DNA from: a virus
Direction: 5' to 3' (one strand)
Length of the DNA: 64,000 bases
IMG/VR virus record: IMGVR_UViG_3300036715_002961
Span: 1-64,000 of that record
Part shown: positions 51,529 to 57,549 of the stretch, piece after piece
How the letters are laid out: every line of letters begins with the position of its first letter
Position numbering within the stretch: the stretch's first letter is position 1
The notes under the pieces: model-generated
Told to the model about the DNA's origin: nothing
What the model saw: only the letters and a program-made list of their open reading frames with translations
The model's database searches: none
Program-made: the position numbers and the translations under genes

Positions 51529-51831
51529 TCAGTCGACGCAGCGGACCGTGCCGCAGCTCCGAACCGCGGCGCGAGTAGGCGCAGCGGCGAGGCATTCGGG
51601 CTTGAGGTCGATATGCGTGTTCGCACGGGCGCGAGCGCATACCTGGTAGCAGGTCAAACCCGCGTCGACTGGCGCTAATTCGGGGCAACCGAGGGCGCGC
51701 AGGTTGTCGCAGGCTCGCGCGCAGATAGCGCTAGGGCGCGCGTCTACCTCGTCGGGGGGCGAGGATGGCGAGCCGGCGCACGCGACGAGCAGAAAGGCGA
51801 CCAGGGGGATCGAATCGAAGAGGCGCTTCAT
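51529..51831 (-). CDS. Cys-rich lipoprotein
   Basis: MKRLFDSIPLVAFLLVAC lipobox; eight further Cys residues; ATGA-coupled to the protease. Confidence 0.7.
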   Translation of the reverse strand: MKRLFDSIPLVAFLLVACAGSPSSPPDEVDARPSAICARACDNLRALGCPELAPVDAGLTCYQVCARARANTHIDLKPECLAAAPTRAAVRSCGTVRCVD

Positions 51832-52607
51832 GGGGCGACCTGTACCACGTAGAGATCGCAAGTTCCGGGGTCGAGGATCCGGGCCTCGTCGAACCATACG
51901 AACCCGCCGTCGGCCCACTGGTCACCCCACGAATTGAGGATCCGGAAACGCGTGCCGTTGGCGTCGGTTTCGTAGCCAACGCACGCGAGCATGTGCCGGC
52001 CGAGTTCTTCACCGTCGAAGGCTCCGATGGGCTTTTTGCCGGTCGCGTCCTCGAATGCCTGGTCGACGCGGATCGCGAAAATGACCGGGTAGCCACGCGA
52101 GAGGGCGTGGCGCATTTCATCGACGCGAGTGCGGCCGACCGAATCGATCCGGTACCAGGCGGGGAGACTCGCGGCGCCGCCGGCTTGTAGGACGTCCATG
52201 GGCAGCGGTTCGAGGACGCGCTCGGCGTAGTCGGCGTCGAACGGCCAAACTCGCTCAGGCGGGACGCCGAAGTCGCGAACGGCGCGAAACAGCGTCCGCG
52301 CGGCGGTCCCCTCGTCGACCAGCGGTTCGGAGGCGGGCTTGTCGTAGAGGCGGGCGAGGGCGTAGAGCGCGAGGGCGGATGCCTCGGATCGGAATGCGCC
52401 AAGGCGGCGAAGGCGGACGTCGATCGCCGCAGCGGTGGCCTGGCCGACGCACGACGACGAGCCGAGCTGGTCGCGAACGCGCGCGACGTAGGGGGTCAAA
52501 TCGGCGCGCGCGGGGAGGAACACGAACGCGCCGAAATGAGCGCGGGTTGAGGGGGAATCGTCGGGGGAGTCGTCGATGATGTGGCCGTAGCCGCGTTTGA
52601 TGTTCAC
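51828..52607 (-). CDS. Papain-like (C1) cysteine peptidase
   Basis: DQLGSSSC, GRHMLACVGY, ILNSWGDQWADGGF. Confidence 0.9.
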   Translation of the reverse strand: MNIKRGYGHIIDDSPDDSPSTRAHFGAFVFLPARADLTPYVARVRDQLGSSSCVGQATAAAIDVRLRRLGAFRSEASALALYALARLYDKPASEPLVDEGTAARTLFRAVRDFGVPPERVWPFDADYAERVLEPLPMDVLQAGGAASLPAWYRIDSVGRTRVDEMRHALSRGYPVIFAIRVDQAFEDATGKKPIGAFDGEELGRHMLACVGYETDANGTRFRILNSWGDQWADGGFVWFDEARILDPGTCDLYVVQVAP

Positions 52608-52627
52608 GCGGCTACGGTATCAAATCG

Positions 52628-53398
52628 CTACGTCGCGAACCGATTTAGGCGGACTTCGGCGTGCCCCCCCTTTCGGGGTTTCATGTGGGAAACGAGGTCG
52701 GGGAAGCGAGCGACCAGATCGTCTGCCGCCGCCCTTGAGGTCTCGTGAGAGCGACCGAATGCCATGCAGCCGCCAGCCTCGACGCGGGCGCGGTTTTTTG
52801 GAGCCAGGTCGTTGAAGCGAACCACGGCGCGATCGTCGAGCCAGTAGAAGATGGTGCGCTCAATGTCGTCTTTGACGGGGACGGTCAAGCGATGCCGGCG
52901 GTCGTTGACGATTCCGTGCAAGGTTCCGATGATCGAGCGAAGGTCGAACGTCACGCCGCCGCCCATGAAATAGGGATTGAATAGCGGATACAGGCCCCAG
53001 ATCCGCGCGCGGGCGGCCGCACATACTTCGAACCCGGCATTGAAGACGCCGACCAGGTCGTTGACCTTCGAGAACGCGTTCGAGTTCTTTTCCGGGGATG
53101 CATAGACGGAATCGACGTCGTCGTCGCTTTGAACGATGAGGGCGCCATCTGGGAAGTAGTCGGTGATGAAGTTCCTTTGAGCCGTGAGCCCTTTCACGCC
53201 GACGACGAGTAGCCCATAGGAGTCCCGCGGGACGGCACACGCGTAGGCCGCGCGCTCCGCTTCGTCAGCGACAAAGATGTAAATGCGCTCGCGCTCGACA
53301 CCGCCCGCGCGAAGGGTTTGGAGGGCGCGACAGTCGATCAGGCTCGCGCGTTGGTAGCTCGGAATCGCCACTACCCAGTCAGTCGGATCGGAAATCAT
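52628..53398 (-). CDS. TET-associated GT-A glycosyltransferase
   Basis: AIPSYQRA, QRNFITDYF, QSDDDV (DxD), KDDIERT, GGC. Confidence 0.8.
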   Translation of the reverse strand: MISDPTDWVVAIPSYQRASLIDCRALQTLRAGGVERERIYIFVADEAERAAYACAVPRDSYGLLVVGVKGLTAQRNFITDYFPDGALIVQSDDDVDSVYASPEKNSNAFSKVNDLVGVFNAGFEVCAAARARIWGLYPLFNPYFMGGGVTFDLRSIIGTLHGIVNDRRHRLTVPVKDDIERTIFYWLDDRAVVRFNDLAPKNRARVEAGGCMAFGRSHETSRAAADDLVARFPDLVSHMKPRKGGHAEVRLNRFAT

Positions 53399-54069
53399 TG
53401 GAGGATCCCTCGTACAAGCCAGAATGCTTCCGCGGCCGCTTCCCCGACCTCTTCGCCTCGCGTTTCCGCCCATCGACGTACGCGGTCGACCGTGAGCCAG
53501 GTTCCCGGTCGGGCGAACTGGCTCTCGTAAGCAGCGCACGCGGCGAGCTTCGCGGATAGGTCGGCCGGCGAGAGCGGGAACAGGAACTTGCCGCCGGGAA
53601 GCTCGGGGGCGGGCCATACCGCCGCGTACGGGTATTCGTAGAGGGCGAGCATGACGCCGATGGTCGCCTCGCGCGGGCGTAGGGCCGCGAGAGTCGCGCG
53701 ATAGACGGCCTGGTGGTCTTGGTGGTGAGAGGCGTAGGCGACGAAAATTGACGTCGGGCGGAACTCGTCGATCCGGGCGTCAATCGACCCGACTAGATCG
53801 CGCTGGGCGACCATGTCGAGGCGCGATTGACGGTCGAGGCCCGCGGGGACGATGGCCCAGTCCTCTTCGGCTAGACCGAGGGCGCGCATGGAGGCGCGGA
53901 CCTCGTCGAGCGTTTGAACGGCACGACGCACGGGAGTCTCCCCGAAACTCAGGAAATCGACGCAACATTGCTTCCCTGCGCGCGTTTTGGCGGCGAGAAG
54001 GCCGCCGCAACCGAGCGCTTCGTCGTCGGCGTGGGGGGCGAGAACCAAGATCCGATCATCCCATCTCAT
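53395..54069 (-). CDS. PIG-L/LmbE family N-deacetylase
   Basis: VLAPHADDEALGCGG, HHQDH, K...YESQ, AEAF. Confidence 0.9.
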   Translation of the reverse strand: MRWDDRILVLAPHADDEALGCGGLLAAKTRAGKQCCVDFLSFGETPVRRAVQTLDEVRASMRALGLAEEDWAIVPAGLDRQSRLDMVAQRDLVGSIDARIDEFRPTSIFVAYASHHQDHQAVYRATLAALRPREATIGVMLALYEYPYAAVWPAPELPGGKFLFPLSPADLSAKLAACAAYESQFARPGTWLTVDRVRRWAETRGEEVGEAAAEAFWLVRGILQ

Positions 54070-54971
54070 TCGCCGATCTCCAGTGATTGACCGTCGCGTA
54101 GTTCCTTGAGCCGTTCGTTCGGATCGACGCAATCGAGCATCTTTTCGCGCATGTAATAGACGACGGAAATCCGTTCTGCGTCCTCGGATTCCGAGACCAT
54201 GTCGGTGACACCGTGCCACTCGTGCGAGTTGAAAAACAGCACGTCTCCATCTTGGAGATCGACCGCGACACCGTATTCAGGGAATCCGAGAAGCGCGCCC
54301 GTGTACTTGCCCCGGCGGACCATGGAGATCACGCCGAATCCGTCTTTGAAGTCGCCTTTGTCCGTGTGGGTTCCGCTCGGCGCCGTGTTGTTGTTGACGG
54401 TCAGTGTCGTGAAGGGCGTCCCGGAAATGACGAACTCGGAGCGACAACGATCGCAGGCGGTGAGCTGGGCCTTGTAGCGGCTCGGCGAGGTCCGCTTGAA
54501 GAGGTCCGCGACGTGCGTGATCATCGGCATGATCGTCTGCCACTTTTCAGGCTCTTGCGCATTGAACGAGGTCTCGCGGCAGAACGGGAATCGGCCGCCT
54601 TGGCGATCGAAGTATCCGATGATTGCGGACGCAACAGCCACGAGGTGTCCGTTGGCATCACGCGTCTCTGTGTTTTTGCCAACGGTTCCATCCGCGAATA
54701 CTTTACGGGGACGTTTGGCACCCGCATATGCACCGCGATTCGTCGATTTCCGCTTACGTAGATCGTGGAGGGCGGGGTAAGCGCCATCGGTCAGCTCGAC
54801 GGGGATGGCCCTACGACGGAGCATCAGCAATGGCGCTCCGTCGGGCTTATAAACGTCCGCATCGCCGGTGAGCAGAACGGGGAGGTCGGAGGCCGAAAGC
54901 AGCTTACCGGCGAATACAGACGCACCGCCGGCGACGCGAGAGCGGAGTTGAAGCACGGGGACGGCGGTCAT
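54066..54971 (-). CDS. TET/JBP family 2OG-Fe(II) 5-methylpyrimidine dioxygenase
   Basis: PFTTLTVN, HTDKGD (HxD), GDVLFFNSHEWHGVT, RISVVYYMREKM. Confidence 0.88.
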   Translation of the reverse strand: MTAVPVLQLRSRVAGGASVFAGKLLSASDLPVLLTGDADVYKPDGAPLLMLRRRAIPVELTDGAYPALHDLRKRKSTNRGAYAGAKRPRKVFADGTVGKNTETRDANGHLVAVASAIIGYFDRQGGRFPFCRETSFNAQEPEKWQTIMPMITHVADLFKRTSPSRYKAQLTACDRCRSEFVISGTPFTTLTVNNNTAPSGTHTDKGDFKDGFGVISMVRRGKYTGALLGFPEYGVAVDLQDGDVLFFNSHEWHGVTDMVSESEDAERISVVYYMREKMLDCVDPNERLKELRDGQSLEIGE

Positions 54972-55591
54972 TGGATCGCCTTTCGAAGCGCCGCAAGGAC
55001 GGTTTGAGAGAGGTCGGTCGTTTGGAGCTTCGCCGCGGCGCGCTTCGCGAGGGCGATGAACTCGGTGTGTTCCGGTTTTTGGAACAGAACCGAAACCAGG
55101 TTGACCGTGGTCTTGGCGGGGTCGAGTGAGACAGCTGGGAACCCGGGTTCCCTCGCGGGCGCGGGGACGTCGACGGGAATTTCGGGGATCCCCAGCTCAA
55201 GAAAAAATTCGTCGCCGTCGATGGGGACCTCCATGCCGTCGAGCATCGCGCGCAACAGAGCCGGATCGAACGCGCCGCGCTTCGCGTTGAGTTTGATCGT
55301 CAACGCTTTCGCCTGCACTTCGGTCAGGTCGTGCAGCTCGACGACTGGGCCGACGAGGAAACCGAGTTCCCGGGCGGCGCGCCATCGGTGCTCGCCGTCG
55401 ATGATGAGATCGCGGCGCTCGCCGGTCTCGTCGGTAGCCCAAACGAGCAGGGCCTGGGAGGCGATCCATCCGTCGTTGCGGAGGCCGTGAACAAGCGCGG
55501 CGCGCTCGCGCGCGCTCATGCGGTTGGGGTTCCATGGGTTCGGATTGAGCGAGAGAAGCGGCAGATTTTTGGCGGGTTGCATCGGTTTCAC
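54968..55591 (-). CDS. ParB-like protein (ParB/Srx domain + possible RHH-like C-terminus)
   Basis: PNPWNPNRM, IIDGEHRW, LNAKRG. Confidence 0.85.
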   Translation of the reverse strand: MKPMQPAKNLPLLSLNPNPWNPNRMSARERAALVHGLRNDGWIASQALLVWATDETGERRDLIIDGEHRWRAARELGFLVGPVVELHDLTEVQAKALTIKLNAKRGAFDPALLRAMLDGMEVPIDGDEFFLELGIPEIPVDVPAPAREPGFPAVSLDPAKTTVNLVSVLFQKPEHTEFIALAKRAAAKLQTTDLSQTVLAALRKAIQ

Positions 55592-56250
55592 GTGTCACCT
55601 ACGACGAGCTTGAGGGCCGAGAGGATGGTTTCGGGGACGGGGCGGCCGGCGATCAACGCGCGGAACTCGGCGTGCTCGGGGACGTCGAAAAACAGCTGCA
55701 CGTTGACGACGGCGGGCCGGGTCGACTGATGATCTTCGCCGACGGCGAACACAGGCGCGGCGGCGCCAATGGAGCTTTCCTCAGCCTGGATTTCCAGGGG
55801 CGCGACGGCGAGCATTTGCATGAGGCTCTCGCGCTCGATGCCAAGGTCGAGGCCGAGATCTTCGGATCCGAGGGCGAACTGAATCTCGCGAACAAGCGCT
55901 TCGAGACTCTCGCGTTTGAAGGTCCCGCGCTTCGAGTTGAGCTTGATCGTGAGCTTCTTTGCGTCGTTTTCGGAGAGGCCTTCGAGGCGGACGATCGGCC
56001 CTTCAACGATGCCGAGGCCGGTCGCCGCGCGCCATCGGTGCTCGCCGTCGATGATGAGATCGCGGCGCTCGCCGGTGGCGTCCGTGCTCCAAACGAGCAG
56101 GGCCTGGGAGGCGATCCAACCGTCGTTGCGAAGGCCAGCTTCGAGGCTCTCGCGCTCGAACTCGGTCATGCGGTTAGGGTTCCACGGGTTCGGCCGGAAC
56201 TGGTCGAGCAGTTCGTTCTGGCAGTTGCCGATGATTTTCTGGGTCGTCAT
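55588..56250 (-). CDS. ParB-like protein, paralogue
   Basis: PNPWNPNRM, IIDGEHRW, LNSKRG. Confidence 0.85.
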   Translation of the reverse strand: MTTQKIIGNCQNELLDQFRPNPWNPNRMTEFERESLEAGLRNDGWIASQALLVWSTDATGERRDLIIDGEHRWRAATGLGIVEGPIVRLEGLSENDAKKLTIKLNSKRGTFKRESLEALVREIQFALGSEDLGLDLGIERESLMQMLAVAPLEIQAEESSIGAAAPVFAVGEDHQSTRPAVVNVQLFFDVPEHAEFRALIAGRPVPETILSALKLVVGDT

Positions 56251-56283
56251 AGGTTGCGCCTTCGGGTTGATTGCATTTGCGGG

Positions 56284-56412
56284 TTAGTTCACGAAAAAAG
56301 CCGAAATCCGTTGAAAATCGGCTCGGTCGAGTTGTACGAATCGGGCGAGAGCTTCGACGGCGGGCCGATTCGTTCGCCAGACGCGCTGGATCCATTCAAG
56401 TTTGATTTGCAT
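56284..56412 (-). CDS. Small hypothetical ORF (42 aa)
   Basis: MQIKLEWIQRVW; fills the gap between ParB-fold genes. Confidence 0.3.
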   Translation of the reverse strand: MQIKLEWIQRVWRTNRPAVEALARFVQLDRADFQRISAFFVN

Positions 56413-56854
56413 CGGGGGGCGCGTCGAGGTCGATGAGGCGGGCCGAGACAAAATCGCCGCCGGCGAGCCACGCGGCGGTGGTCCGATGATGGCCGTCGTG
56501 GAGGTAGTTTTTGCCGCCGGCGCGCACCACGATCGGGACGTCGACGAGGGCGCCATGGCCGACGGCGCGGCGGCCGGGGACGATCTCGACGTCGCCGCGC
56601 TCGTACTGCATGAGGCGCGAGTCGCTGACGGTTCGTTGAATCGCCATGAGCGAGGCGATCTCGACCTCGACGACGGGGGCCGTCAGCGTGCGAGCGGCGA
56701 TGGCCGCGTCGGCGATGAGCGCCTTGTAGGCATCGCGGTCGGCGACGGGGAACGGGACCAACAACCGACCGCCGTCGGCCTCGTTGAGGTAGCGGGCGGG
56801 GTCGGGTAGGACGCCCCGTTGAGCCCATAAAACGAATGCAGAACGCGGTTTCAC
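56396..56854 (-). CDS. ParB/Srx-fold protein
   Basis: LMAIQRTV...PIVV...YLHDGHHR. Confidence 0.7.
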   Translation of the reverse strand: MKPRSAFVLWAQRGVLPDPARYLNEADGGRLLVPFPVADRDAYKALIADAAIAARTLTAPVVEVEIASLMAIQRTVSDSRLMQYERGDVEIVPGRRAVGHGALVDVPIVVRAGGKNYLHDGHHRTTAAWLAGGDFVSARLIDLDAPPDANQT

Positions 56855-56863
56855 GCCGCGACC

Positions 56864-57199
56864 CTAGCGAGGAGTCGCAACGCTTGTAAACCAGTCTCCA
56901 AACGCCTCCCCGTGGCGCCACGCGCGGACGATGACAAATGCGGCCGAGTCGAGTCGAGCGCCCGTCGGTTCATCGCCGACCAGCTGCCCCGCGAAAACCA
57001 TAGTCGACGCGAACAGGTGCGGCGACGGGCGGGTTCCTCGACCGATGCGCGCCTCCATGAGCAGAACCCATGCGCAGGCGAAGTTCGCGAGGGCCGGGTC
57101 GTTCTGCGAAACGTCTTGGTACCAAAGGATAAGGGCTTGAAAATCGGTCAATTTTTCGTCCCGCGGGTGGGAGGGGAAAACCAGCCGCCACCGGTCCAA
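56864..57199 (-). CDS. Hypothetical protein
   Basis: Protein-like ORF; C-terminal AWRHGEAFGDW. Confidence 0.5.
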   Translation of the reverse strand: MDRWRLVFPSHPRDEKLTDFQALILWYQDVSQNDPALANFACAWVLLMEARIGRGTRPSPHLFASTMVFAGQLVGDEPTGARLDSAAFVIVRAWRHGEAFGDWFTSVATPR

Positions 57200-57549
57200 T
57201 GACCGGCGAGCAGCGCGGCGGCGAGGCCGTCGACCTCGGCGTCGGAAATGGTGTCGTCGAGCGGCTCGGGAAACGACGCTAGCAGCTCGTTGAGCGCGTT
57301 CACGAGACTGGCGACCGCGGATCCCTCGTCGCGTGCGCGGATGTTGAAAAGCTCGTGGTCGAGGGCGCGGCGACCGGTGCGGCGATGGACCTCGGAAACG
57401 ATGAGTGCGAGCAGCACGGCGTCACCACTGCCCGTGATGCGAACGTCGGTCTCGACGCGGTAGGCGGCGTGGTTCCGCGGGCGCGTAGACGCCATGCGGC
57501 GGGCGTGGATGCGCCGCAATCGTCGCAGAACGTCCGCCAGCTCGGTCAC
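57148..57549 (-). CDS. Hypothetical protein
   Basis: GTG start at 57549 overlaps the upstream stop (GTGA). Confidence 0.45.
   Translation of the reverse strand: MTELADVLRRLRRIHARRMASTRPRNHAAYRVETDVRITGSGDAVLLALIVSEVHRRTGRRALDHELFNIRARDEGSAVASLVNALNELLASFPEPLDDTISDAEVDGLAAALLAGHWTGGGWFSPPTRGTKN

What the first reader, a model, noticed from the sequence alone, without database searches (positions are those of the whole stretch)
52628..56250. DNA hypermodification operon: ParB-ParB-TET/JBP-PIG-L deacetylase-glycosyltransferase, predicting an amino-sugar base
Seen: five genes chained by 4-nt ATGA/GTGA overlaps, with intact motifs (HxD...H...R; PHADDE/HQDH; DDD). Established: phage TET/JBP enzymes hydroxylate 5-methylpyrimidines, associated glycosyltransferases glycosylate the product, and PIG-L enzymes de-N-acetylate GlcNAc. 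Inference: T or 5mC is hydroxymethylated, GlcNAc-ylated, then deacetylated to a cationic glucosaminyl base, possibly for anti-restriction or DNA condensation. No C5-methyltransferase is visible in the window, which leaves open a thymine-derived, base-J-like product. Its novelty must be checked against existing phage TET/GT literature.
Basis: partly seen in the sequence, partly recalled or inferred. Interest (0 to 1): 0.85.

Follow-up and report, generated by a model that had tools for sequence, protein, structure and literature searches.

The report
Phage thymine amino-sugar DNA modification operon
An uncultured phage carries five tightly coupled genes that most likely oxidise thymine in its finished DNA, attach an N-acetyl sugar and then remove the acetyl group, leaving a positively charged amino sugar on the base; the same gene set sits untested in cultured Arthrobacter and Mycobacterium phages.

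Summary
Five minus-strand genes (52628-56250) are chained by GTGA/ATGA overlaps: two ParB-N paralogues, a Tet_JBP dioxygenase, a PIG-L/LmbE deacetylase and a TAGT glycosyltransferase. All catalytic motifs are intact.

The base is most likely thymine, not 5mC. The 88.8-kb genome (95% complete) has no C5-methyltransferase and no thymidylate-synthase homologue. 72 of the 80 closest TET loci carry ParB, and most carry 5hmU-processing kinase/AADT genes. That is the ParB-dependent T-dioxygenase clade of O'Toole et al. 2026.

PIG-L travels with TAGT and ParB in 36 of 80 viral PIG-L loci. The ParB-TET-TAGT-PIG-L set also occurs in six Arthrobacter phages and about nine distinct Mycobacterium phages, labelled "glucosaminyl deacetylase".

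No searchable paper links PIG-L/LmbE with TET/JBP. Iyer 2013 and all supplements could not be read. The sugar's identity and deacetylation on DNA are inferred, not shown.

This scan has already flagged the same cassette in other genomes. Verdict: a new variant of a known kind, of moderate to high interest, and directly testable by LC-MS.

The parts
55588..56250 (-). ParB-like protein 1 (220 aa). It has the N-terminal ParB/Noc-type domain with a GEHRWRA box and a divergent C-terminal half. It is the first gene of the coupled five-gene run.
   Evidence: Pfam ParB_N E 6.1e-5, below the cut-off. PHROG ParB-like 7.3e-16. 47% identical to ParB2 over 195 aa, and much more alike across the N-terminal ~110 aa.
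54968..55591 (-). ParB-like protein 2 (207 aa), a tandem paralogue. Its GTG start overlaps the ParB1 stop (GTGA). It is the putative activator partner of the dioxygenase.
   Evidence: Pfam ParB_N E 7.8e-6, at the cut-off. Its PDB matches (Noc 7ng0, E 1e-4; Spo0J 1vz0) cover only the N-terminal domain. Overlap verified.
54066..54971 (-). TET/JBP-family Fe(II)/2-oxoglutarate 5-methylpyrimidine dioxygenase (301 aa), a predicted thymine dioxygenase (T to 5hmU).
   Evidence: Pfam Tet_JBP E 4.4e-27. H202, D204, H253 and R267 are invariant. 72 of the 80 closest relatives' loci have ParB, and the commonest neighbours are a P-loop kinase, AADT and GATase.
53395..54069 (-). PIG-L/LmbE-family zinc de-N-acetylase (224 aa), predicted to deacetylate the HexNAc attached to the base.
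   Evidence: Pfam PIG-L E 1.5e-14. Sequence matches in PDB to TT1542, teicoplanin deacetylase Orf2*, Dbv21 and BC1534. AF2 model pLDDT 90.6. All 42 Foldseek hits with E<=0.001 have the LmbE fold. H13, D15, D16, D118 and H119 are invariant in 46 sequences.
52628..53398 (-). TET-associated glycosyltransferase (TAGT, GT-A fold, 256 aa), predicted to transfer an N-acetylhexosamine to 5hmU in DNA.
   Evidence: Pfam TAGT E 9.3e-12. PHROG 842 'beta-glucosyl-HMC-alpha-glucosyltransferase' 4.8e-10. AF2 pLDDT 92.0. Top Foldseek hits are S. aureus TarS, including its UDP-GlcNAc complex, at E 6e-6 and TM 0.50-0.56. R17, R75, D93, D94 and D178 are invariant.

Best explanation
This is a post-replicative thymine hypermodification operon. 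Step 1: the ParB1/ParB2 pair has the ParB N-terminal domain plus a C-terminal half and no helix-turn-helix. It activates the TET/JBP-type dioxygenase, which oxidises thymine in the phage's double-stranded DNA to 5-hydroxymethyluracil. This step is inferred from clade and context, and the biochemistry is shown for relatives in PMC13229309. Step 2: the GT-A TAGT enzyme transfers an N-acetylhexosamine, most likely GlcNAc from host UDP-GlcNAc, to the 5hmU hydroxyl, giving an N-acetylated analogue of base J (inferred). Step 3: the LmbE-type zinc deacetylase removes the acetyl group, leaving 5-(glucosaminyl-oxymethyl)uracil, which carries a protonatable amine (inferred). The two-step route mirrors every characterised GT/LmbE pair that I recall (GPI, mycothiol, bacillithiol, aminoglycosides, glycopeptides): a glucosamine glycoside is made by GlcNAc transfer followed by de-N-acetylation. 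The likely pay-off is protection of phage DNA from host nucleases, and/or charge neutralisation of packaged DNA. That purpose is untested.
For: Gene structure: five co-oriented genes with 4-nt start/stop overlaps.

Intact catalytic residues in TET, PIG-L and TAGT.

Thymine rather than 5mC: PF00145, PF00303 and PF01555 give 0 matches in the 88.8-kb, 95%-complete genome, with controls ringing in 9-10 of 14 genomes. There are also 0 matches of PF00145/PF00303 in 3 related records, one of them 100% complete. Of the 80 closest TET loci, 72 have ParB. The commonest neighbour clusters are a P-loop kinase (52 loci), the amino-acid:DNA transferase PF18724 (51), a GATase (34) and a GNAT (20). That is the context PMC13229309 gives for ParB-dependent clade C1 T-dioxygenases (passages).

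PIG-L belongs to the module. ParB-TET-PIG-L-TAGT recurs in two other IMG/VR contigs at 38-59% PIG-L identity, and an 85%-identical metagenome fragment has TAGT right after PIG-L. Arthrobacter phages Bolt007 and Prairie and Mycobacterium phage Baee carry the same set. 36 of 80 viral PIG-L loci carry TAGT, and all 36 also carry ParB. In the PIG-L tree the TAGT/ParB-linked sequences cluster apart from the sugar-nucleotide-cluster PIG-Ls; 0 of 500 shuffles were as clustered.

Folds: PIG-L matches BshB, MshB, teicoplanin and chitobiose deacetylases. TAGT matches GT-A enzymes, with UDP-GlcNAc-using TarS on top.

Precedents: phage GT-A enzymes that put HexNAc on 5hmC (bioRxiv 2023.12.21.572611, passages). 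The TAGT relative GREB1 is an O-GlcNAc transferase (abstract in the search listing).
Against: No chemistry exists for any member of the cassette.

The donor sugar is unknown. The TarS match is only TM 0.5-0.56 and is generic for GT-A. I found no alignment position that separates PIG-L-linked TAGTs from unlinked ones.

The closest 80 TAGT relatives are mostly low-GC, giant-virus-like contigs, and only 1 of them has PIG-L. Only 1 of the 80 closest TET loci has PIG-L. So the TET+PIG-L combination is rare.

Most PIG-L+TAGT+ParB loci (34 of 36) lack any detectable TET. 30 such records (or ParB/PIG-L relatives) have 0 Tet_JBP and 0 ThyA matches (positive control). TAGT/PIG-L therefore does not strictly need a known hydroxymethyl-pyrimidine source, which weakens the assumption that 5hmU is the acceptor everywhere.

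The LmbE fold also houses a non-deacetylase, the GalB hydratase.

ParB1 scores below Pfam's cut-off.

The phage T-dioxygenases characterised so far also oxidise 5mC (abstract), so host-methylated cytosine is not excluded.
Confidence: 0.5

Rival explanations
1. The chemistry is the same but the sugar or the amide differs. TAGT transfers another N-acylated sugar (GalNAc, ManNAc or a di-N-acetyl sugar), or PIG-L hydrolyses a different amide or ester on the DNA-linked glycan. The product would then be an amino sugar other than glucosamine, or a differently unmasked group.
For: Phage DNA glycosyltransferases install varied sugars: hexose, HexNAc and heptose, sometimes with partner epimerases (passages of bioRxiv 2023.12.21.572611). 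LmbE-fold enzymes act on diverse GlcNAc glycosides and include amidase- and hydratase-like members (titles). No donor-specific signature was found in TAGT.
Against: The window's operon has no epimerase or sugar-nucleotide synthesis gene, so the donor must be a host metabolite. UDP-GlcNAc is the universal abundant one (established knowledge). The solved LmbE deacetylases whose substrates are characterised act on GlcNAc-type N-acetyl groups.
Confidence: 0.2
2. PIG-L does not work on DNA. It deacetylates a soluble or envelope GlcNAc conjugate of the host (for example a thiol-cofactor precursor or a cell-wall intermediate) as a host-takeover function. TAGT alone makes a base-J-like or HexNAc base.
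For: All characterised LmbE enzymes act on small molecules or lipids, not polymers of nucleic acid (recalled; titles). 34 of 80 viral PIG-L loci have no TAGT or ParB and sit in sugar-nucleotide clusters. GenBank annotators name the Vibrio phage homologues after the bacillithiol enzyme BshB1.
Against: PIG-L is translationally coupled between TET and TAGT here. It is adjacent to TAGT in three divergent lineages, with the gene order varying but the partnership kept. TAGT/ParB-linked PIG-Ls form their own groups in the tree. In relatives the cassette adds ATP-grasp or WbqC enzymes, which would need the freed amine on the same product.
Confidence: 0.12
3. The substrate base is 5-methylcytosine, supplied by a host Dcm-like methylase or an unrecognised phage methylase. 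The product would be glucosaminyl-5hmC.
For: Characterised phage T-dioxygenases also oxidise 5mC (abstract of PMC13229309). Phage GT-A enzymes are proven on 5hmC. The host is unknown.
Against: No PF00145 or PF01555 methylase is present in the genome, and no PF00145 in a 100%-complete relative. The ten largest proteins of the last 25 kb show no methylase. The TET's nearest relatives travel with 5hmU-specific kinase/AADT machinery. PMC13229309 reports that only 6% of 5mYOX pathways have a C5-MT (section 12).
Confidence: 0.08
4. The cassette glycosylates something other than DNA (a virion or host protein, as GREB1 does), and the TET/ParB genes serve a separate DNA function.
For: The TAGT relative GREB1 O-GlcNAcylates a protein (abstract in the listing). 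Many TAGT+PIG-L+ParB loci lack any TET.
Against: The five genes are translationally coupled. TAGT is defined by its link to TET/JBP (Pfam name). It matches the phage family of glucosyl-HMC transferases. ParB-fold proteins are DNA-associated, and the cassette sits next to the DNA-packaging genes in many relatives.
Confidence: 0.05

Closest known systems
ParB-dependent phage thymine dioxygenases (5mYOX clade C1, e.g. 5mYOX176/ParB176; O'Toole et al., PNAS 2026, PMC13229309)
   Same: A TET/JBP-family enzyme sits directly after ParB-like gene(s) that lack an obvious DNA-binding domain. The genome has no C5-methyltransferase. The nearest relatives carry kinase, AADT and GATase neighbours, and the module lies close to the terminase.
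   Different: Here the downstream tailoring is a TAGT glycosyltransferase plus an LmbE deacetylase, not kinase/AADT. That paper links glycosyltransferases mainly to the ParB-independent clade C2, and its main text never mentions a deacetylase (0 occurrences). This operon has two tandem ParB paralogues. I could not compare with 5mYOX176 itself, because its sequence is in closed supplements.
Base J synthesis in kinetoplastids (JBP1/2 plus JGT)
   Same: Thymine is oxidised in DNA to 5hmU by a TET/JBP enzyme, and a GT-A glycosyltransferase related to TAGT then O-glycosylates it (introduction of PMC13229309; JGT/GT-A alignment passages).
   Different: Base J carries glucose and is not further processed. 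Here a de-N-acetylase implies an N-acetyl sugar that is converted to an amino sugar. There is no J-binding domain, and ParB acts as a helper.
Phage 5mC-TET-glycosyltransferase hypermodification clusters (Burke et al. 2021, PMC8256090; bioRxiv 2023.12.21.572611)
   Same: Post-replicative oxidation is followed by a GT-A or GT-B sugar transfer. HexNAc on a hydroxymethyl pyrimidine has been demonstrated (5-HexNAcmC).
   Different: Those pathways start from a phage C5-methyltransferase and modify cytosine. Neither main text mentions a deacetylase (0 occurrences).
GlcNAc-transferase plus LmbE-deacetylase pairs of small-molecule pathways (PIG-A/PIG-L, MshA/MshB, BshA/BshB, teicoplanin Orf2*)
   Same: The logic has the same two steps (recalled from established biochemistry). 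The window's PIG-L model matches MshB, BshB, Orf2* and Dbv21 at TM 0.7-0.77, with the His/Asp/His metal motif conserved.
   Different: The acceptor would be a base in double-stranded DNA, and the partner glycosyltransferase is a GT-A TAGT. In the window no ligase follows, whereas MshC/BshC-type steps follow in the thiol pathways. Some phage relatives do add ATP-grasp or WbqC genes.
The same cassette in cultured actinophages (Arthrobacter phages Bolt007, Prairie, Klevey, Lilmac1015, Altadena, Bumble; Mycobacterium phages Baee, Acadian, Donny, Rich and others)
   Same: The set ParB-like, Tet_JBP, TAGT and PIG-L occurs in one run next to the terminase.
   Different: The gene order is TET-TAGT-PIG-L. 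There is a single ParB. Baee adds a Ploopntkinase3 gene. The proteins are only distantly related to the window's: the window's PIG-L is 32% identical to Bolt007's, and Baee's is similarly distant from Bolt007's. None has published chemistry that I could find.

Membership tests
TET/JBP (Pfam PF12851; 5mYOX) | Profile match above the curated cut-off | tested here: met
   94.8 bits against a cut-off of 34.9, E 4.4e-27, covering profile positions 3-164 of 164. Found again in the genome search at 96.6 bits.
TET/JBP (Pfam PF12851; 5mYOX) | Fe(II) facial triad HxD...H and the 2-oxoglutarate-binding Arg | tested here: met
   H202, D204, H253 and R267 are invariant in 3 and in 38 aligned relatives.
ParB-dependent T-dioxygenase subclass (clade C1 of PMC13229309) | Co-located ParB homologue, and a T-hypermodification context in relatives | tested here: met
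   Two ParB genes lie directly upstream. ParB is present in 72 of the 80 closest TET loci, with kinase (52), AADT (51) and GATase (34) neighbours.
ParB-dependent T-dioxygenase subclass (clade C1 of PMC13229309) | Subclass-specific C-terminal extension, and phylogenetic placement with 5mYOX176 | not testable with these tools
   The reference sequences are in supplements, which are closed. The window's protein has about 25 residues after the Pfam domain, which decides nothing.
ParB-dependent T-dioxygenase subclass (clade C1 of PMC13229309) | Oxidation of T to 5hmU that needs ParB | not testable with these tools
   This needs expression and UHPLC/MS.
5mYOX-associated ParB (ParB/Noc CTPase-fold N-domain without DNA-binding domain) | ParB_N domain with the GxxRxxA box | tested here: met
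   ParB2 scores 26.3 bits, exactly at the cut-off. ParB1 scores 23.4, below it. Both match PHROG ParB-like families at about 1e-15. GEHRWRA aligns with GERRWRA of Noc.
5mYOX-associated ParB (ParB/Noc CTPase-fold N-domain without DNA-binding domain) | [quoted passage not shown] | tested here: inconclusive
   The proteins are 207 and 220 aa, and their PDB matches cover only residues ~4-111. I did not model the C-terminal halves.
PIG-L / LmbE de-N-acetylases (PF02585) | Profile match above the cut-off, and the LmbE fold | tested here: met
   55 bits against 28.2. AF2 model pLDDT 90.6. All 42 Foldseek matches with E<=0.001 are LmbE-fold entries, with TM 0.67-0.77.
PIG-L / LmbE de-N-acetylases (PF02585) | Metal and catalytic motif: (A/P)H(P/A)DD ... 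H-x-D-H | tested here: met
   H13, D15, D16, D118 and H119 are invariant in 46 viral homologues. H116 is invariant in the 4 closest. Which residue binds zinc is recalled from MshB, not tested.
PIG-L / LmbE de-N-acetylases (PF02585) | Hydrolysis of the N-acetyl group of a GlcNAc glycoside | not testable with these tools
   This needs an enzyme assay. The fold also contains the GalB hydratase.
TAGT, TET-associated glycosyltransferase (PF20691) | Profile match above the cut-off, and a GT-A fold | tested here: met
   45.7 bits against 27.5, covering profile positions 3-205 of 205. AF2 pLDDT 92.0. Foldseek hits are GT-A enzymes such as TarS, LH3 and ColGalT1.
TAGT, TET-associated glycosyltransferase (PF20691) | R...DDD...EDY/F active-site motifs of phage GT-A DNA glycosyltransferases and JGT (bioRxiv 2023.12.21.572611) | tested here: met
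   R75, D92-D93-D94 and D178 are present. The third motif reads K-D-D-I-E where most relatives have K-E-D-Y-E, but the central Asp is invariant in 46 sequences.
TAGT, TET-associated glycosyltransferase (PF20691) | Genomic association with a TET/JBP gene | tested here: met
   Same operon, with one gene between them.

The most novel reading that the evidence does not exclude
Phages make a previously unreported natural DNA base, 5-(glucosaminyl-oxymethyl)uracil, a cationic amino analogue of base J. It would be made by adding an LmbE-type de-N-acetylase to a ParB-activated thymine dioxygenase and a TAGT. In related cassettes the freed amine would be a handle that ATP-grasp or WbqC enzymes acylate, giving aminoacyl-amino-sugar DNA. 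The many TAGT+PIG-L+ParB cassettes without any TET or ThyA homologue would imply a still unknown way of creating the acceptor on DNA.
Probability: 0.4. Interest if true: 0.75.

Novelty: new variant of a known kind. Interest (0 to 1): 0.58.

Why it matters
If the prediction holds, it adds an amino sugar to the list of natural DNA base modifications. It would also show that the GlcNAc-transfer-then-deacetylate logic of GPI, mycothiol and bacillithiol synthesis has been recruited to DNA. It extends the newly described ParB-dependent thymine dioxygenases to a glycosylation branch. The free amine would give a cationic, chemically addressable handle on DNA, which is of interest for restriction and CRISPR evasion, DNA packaging and enzymatic DNA labelling. 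Because the same cassette is in easily grown Arthrobacter and Mycobacterium smegmatis phages, one nucleoside LC-MS run can test the question.

Tried and rejected
1. Complex prediction of ParB1 + ParB2 + TET (collected). The verdict was 'no answer' (score 0.10, mark 0.32), so it is reported here only.

2. Donor-specificity signature. I looked for alignment columns where the 8 PIG-L-linked TAGTs share a residue that is rare in the 38 unlinked ones, and for columns fixed in the 3 window-type TAGTs but different in close relatives. None was found.

3. Promoter/terminator scan of 52300-57300. It found 1 promoter-like and 7 terminator-like sites, against 0.5 and 4.7 expected, which is not informative.

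4. Hidden dioxygenase in the TET-less cassettes. The ~210-aa protein after TAGT is a genuine MgsA/RarA C-terminal domain homologue (PDB 2r9g, 1.9e-15). Representatives of two other neighbour clusters had no Pfam match. The question is left unexplained.

5. Metagenome scan with the PIG-L protein. It returned 8 loci, mostly contigs under 4 kb. Only the 85%-identical 1.1-kb fragment was informative, with TAGT directly downstream.

6. The closest TerL relatives among cultured phages are only ~23% identical, so no host could be assigned.

7. Literature. Iyer et al. 2013 (NAR 41:7635), which defined TAGT, is not held (its reference entry was seen). I cite it from recall only, and it may already note the deacetylase. 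Dataset S10 of PMC13229309 and the co-occurrence tables of bioRxiv 2023.12.21.572611 may list deacetylase domains. What I saw of each paper:
- PMC13229309: outline and abstract, passages, section 12 in full.
- bioRxiv 2023.12.21.572611: passages.
- PMC13326640, PMC12686479, PMC7824862, PMC10893344: passages.
- PMC4081097: one reference entry.
- PMC8256090 and PMC7968844: search listing only.
Searches behind 'not in print'.

8. I did not use the look-up of sequencing runs, read laying, the search of protein representatives or the protein-atlas search.

Full report
WHAT IS THERE. The window is the first 64 kb of an 88.8-kb IMG/VR virus record, rated 95% complete by CheckV. GC is about 63%, and almost all genes lie on the minus strand. 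At 52628-56250 there are five consecutive minus-strand genes whose stop and start codons overlap by four bases: GTGA, ATGA, ATGA, ATGA.

Pfam names them as follows:
- ParB_N: 55588-56250, E 6.1e-5, below the cut-off.
- ParB_N: 54968-55591, E 7.8e-6, at the cut-off.
- Tet_JBP: 54066-54971, E 4.4e-27.
- PIG-L: 53395-54069, E 1.5e-14.
- TAGT: 52628-53398, E 9.3e-12.

PHROGs supports the ParB calls at about 1e-15. It also links TAGT to the family of glucosyl-HMC glucosyltransferases. The start codons at 54069 and 53398, rather than the longer mechanical ORFs, agree with where homologues begin.

- TET: H202, D204, H253 and R267.
- PIG-L: H13, D15, D16, D118 and H119.
- TAGT: R75, D93, D94 and D178.

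WHICH BASE. The whole genome has no DNA C5-methyltransferase (PF00145), no thymidylate-synthase-type hydroxymethylase (PF00303) and no N6/N4 methylase (PF01555). The same searches rang in 9-10 of 14 control genomes. Pfam on the ten largest proteins of the last 25 kb found a further ParB_N protein, SbcCD-like and RecA-like proteins, and no methylase.

A scan of IMG/VR with a TET alignment found at least 472 relatives. In the 80 best loci, local HMMs find ParB in 72, TAGT in 11 and PIG-L in 1. The commonest neighbour clusters are a P-loop kinase (52 loci), the amino-acid:DNA transferase PF18724 (51), a glutamine amidotransferase (34), a GNAT (20) and the large terminase (18).

This is the context that O'Toole et al. 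(PMC13229309; passages, section 12) describe for their ParB-dependent clade C1. Members of that clade oxidise thymine to 5hmU in E. coli and in vitro only with their cognate ParB. The same paper reports that only 6% of 5mYOX pathways have a C5-MT. I therefore read the enzyme as a ParB-activated thymine dioxygenase.

The two ParBs are 47% identical, and nearly identical over the N-terminal ~110 residues. They match Noc/Spo0J only in the N-terminal domain. Several relatives also have two ParBs.

IS PIG-L PART OF THE PATHWAY? A single-sequence scan found three viral relatives:
- A 59-kb contig with ParB-TET-radical SAM/SPASM-PIG-L-TAGT (59% PIG-L identity).
- A 109-kb, 100%-complete contig with ParB-TET-PIG-L-TAGT (38% identity).
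- A third contig where PIG-L sits with an HD phosphohydrolase, a hexapeptide acyltransferase and a radical SAM enzyme, with no TET.

None of these three records has PF00145 or PF00303.

A profile scan found 96 viral PIG-L relatives, of which 80 loci were kept. These 80 include near-duplicate contigs and the three above. The split is as follows:
- 36 carry TAGT, and all 36 also carry ParB. Two of the 36 have a TET.
- 9 carry ParB without TAGT.
- 34 have PIG-L without TAGT, ParB or TET.
- 1 gave no hit.

The loci without TAGT or ParB are largely sugar-nucleotide clusters, with epimerase, RmlD, DegT and GT8 genes.

In a maximum-likelihood tree, the window's PIG-L groups with the 59-kb contig's protein and the HD-context protein (starred support). 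That group is sister, at 93/87 support (not starred), to a 21-row clade made up of the TAGT/ParB-linked enzymes. The sugar-cluster enzymes form a separate starred clade. Label clustering was reached by 0 of 500 shuffles.

An 85%-identical metagenome fragment again has TAGT directly after PIG-L. The database search shows ten more proteins at 50-59% identity.

CULTURED PHAGES. tblastn against GenBank phages found the window's PIG-L in five records. The Bolt007 homologue as query found 19 records: 6 Arthrobacter, 12 Mycobacterium (some are RefSeq duplicates) and 1 unclassified.

Three of these were examined in detail:
- Arthrobacter phages Bolt007 and Prairie encode, in order, ParB-like, 'oxidoreductase', glycosyltransferase and 'glucosaminyl deacetylase'. 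For Bolt007 these correspond to Tet_JBP (E 2e-5, and 1.4e-7 in the genome search), TAGT (1e-4) and PIG-L (2e-12).
- Mycobacterium phage Baee gp1-gp6 read: unknown, Tet_JBP (weak), TAGT (3.4e-40), PIG-L, Ploopntkinase3, terminase.

So the cassette is public and annotated. The only paper holding that label together with 'phage' is a gene list.

STRUCTURE. AF2 models built on 46-row alignments are confident: pLDDT 90.6 for PIG-L and 92.0 for TAGT.

- PIG-L: all 42 Foldseek matches with E<=0.001 are LmbE-fold entries. They include BC1534, TT1542, teicoplanin Orf2*, Dbv21, chitobiose deacetylases, BshB and MshB, and also the GalB hydratase.
- TAGT: it is a GT-A enzyme. The top hits are S. aureus TarS, including its UDP-GlcNAc complex, but at TM only 0.50-0.56.

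MECHANISM AND ITS WEAK POINTS. The best-supported chain is T to 5hmU, then HexNAc-O-methyl-U, then hexosaminyl-O-methyl-U.

- Step 1 rests on clade and context, plus published biochemistry of relatives.
- Step 2 rests on family membership. It also has two precedents: phage GT-A enzymes make 5-HexNAc-mC, and GREB1, a TAGT relative, is an O-GlcNAc transferase (abstract listing).
- Step 3 rests on conserved gene linkage. It also rests on a recalled rule: glucosamine glycosides in GPI, mycothiol, bacillithiol, aminoglycoside and glycopeptide pathways are made by GlcNAc transfer followed by an LmbE deacetylase.

Several results count against over-confidence:
- The TET+PIG-L combination is rare: 1 of 80 TET loci and 1 of 80 TAGT loci.
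- No residue signature for the donor sugar was found.
- 34 of the 36 PIG-L+TAGT+ParB loci have no TET. In addition, 30 records of the TET-less kinds (PIG-L+TAGT+ParB, or PIG-L/ParB with another glycosyltransferase) have neither Tet_JBP nor ThyA. Ten of those records are at least 90% complete. The positive control found Tet_JBP in 4 of 5 records. In those phages the acceptor for the sugar is unexplained.
- In relatives the cassette often adds WbqC-like, ATP-grasp or UDP-galactopyranose-mutase genes. That fits a freed amine being acylated further. The window has no such gene, so its end product would be the free amine.

COMPARISON AND NOVELTY. The operon works like a hybrid of three things: the ParB-dependent T-dioxygenase systems (PMC13229309), base J synthesis, and GlcNAc-transferase/LmbE pairs.

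No paper in the searchable library holds LmbE or PIG-L together with JBP (0 papers each). 'Deacetylase' occurs 0 times in the main texts of PMC13229309, its preprint, PMC8256090 and the glycosyltransferase preprint. Phage Carin-5 has an annotated 'polysaccharide deacetylase' in a different, SP-15-like thymidine glycan cluster.

Three caveats apply. Iyer et al. 2013 could not be read. Supplements are closed. This scan has already reported the same cassette on other DNA: 23 notes in at least 19 genomes. One of those notes appears to describe the 109-kb contig I reached independently, and another points to the same cultured actinophages.

I class the finding as a new variant of a known kind. It is real, recurrent, chemically unverified and easy to test.

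VERDICT. Confidence in the full three-step chain is 0.5. Interest is 0.58.

Noticed in passing
loci L006-L047 (e.g. L037:4995-9799, L016:1335-5210): A widespread TET-less cassette lies just before the packaging genes: PIG-L, then WbqC-like (or two unknown proteins, or UDP-galactopyranose mutase), then ParB, TAGT and an MgsA C-terminal-domain protein, sometimes ATP-grasp, then TerS-like HTH and TerL. 30 such or related records have 0 Tet_JBP and 0 thymidylate-synthase matches, so the acceptor for the sugar is unexplained.
   Followed up: partly
L001:5114-5992; L087 and L088 downstream of TAGT: A radical SAM/SPASM enzyme sits between TET and PIG-L in the closest related contig. Its homologues follow TAGT in two PIG-L-less loci. 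This suggests further tailoring of the DNA-linked sugar.
   Followed up: no
window 968-55151; whole genome: The palindrome GGAACCCGGGTTC(C) occurs 14 times in the window at up to 1 mismatch, against 0.02 expected. There are 20 exact 13-mers in the 88.8-kb genome. One copy lies inside the ParB2 gene at 55138-55151.
   Followed up: partly
window 51828-52607 (-) and 52570-52625: A papain-family (Peptidase_C1, E 1.3e-7) protein starts 20 nt after TAGT. An 11-bp inverted repeat (CCGTAGCCGCG...CGCGGCTACGG) spans its start codon. Relatives of the cassette have no such peptidase gene beside TAGT.
   Followed up: no
window 56396-56854 (-), 56864-57199 (-); genome 81303-81965 (-): More ParB-type genes are present: a weak ParBc_2/VapB-like match (E 0.004-0.012) directly upstream of the operon, and a clear third ParB_N protein (E 1.8e-9) near the genome's end. 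The 111-aa ORF at 56864-57199 has a sub-threshold match to the Thoeris inhibitor Tad4 (E 1.1e-4).
   Followed up: no
loci L168-L246: The closest relatives of the window's TAGT (33-43% identity) are mostly on low-GC contigs (GC 0.21-0.50), many of them named as giant-virus MAGs. 20 of the 80 have a TET within 5 kb. Apart from the contig related to the window, none has ParB or PIG-L.
   Followed up: partly
L084 (Vibrio phage vB_VpS_PG28, MT735630.2:7711-13718): Cultured Vibrio phages carry PIG-L, WbqC, an unknown gene, a methyltransferase, WbqC, a GT4 (GT-B) glycosyltransferase and ParB, with no Tet_JBP in the genome. The amino-sugar logic is the same but the glycosyltransferase fold differs.
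   Followed up: partly
GenBank phage records: Phage TET/JBP genes are variously labelled 'oxidoreductase', 'queuine tRNA-ribosyltransferase', 'SNF2 DNA repair protein' or 'DnaJ chaperone' in public records. PHROG 6059 carries the queuine label. These labels hide the pathway from keyword searches.
   Followed up: no
L002:5320-9728: The PIG-L most closely grouped with the window's clade that lacks a TET sits between a YfbR-like HD 5'-deoxynucleotidase and a hexapeptide acyltransferase, followed by a radical SAM enzyme, next to gyrase B. This may be a different nucleotide or DNA sugar pathway.
   Followed up: no
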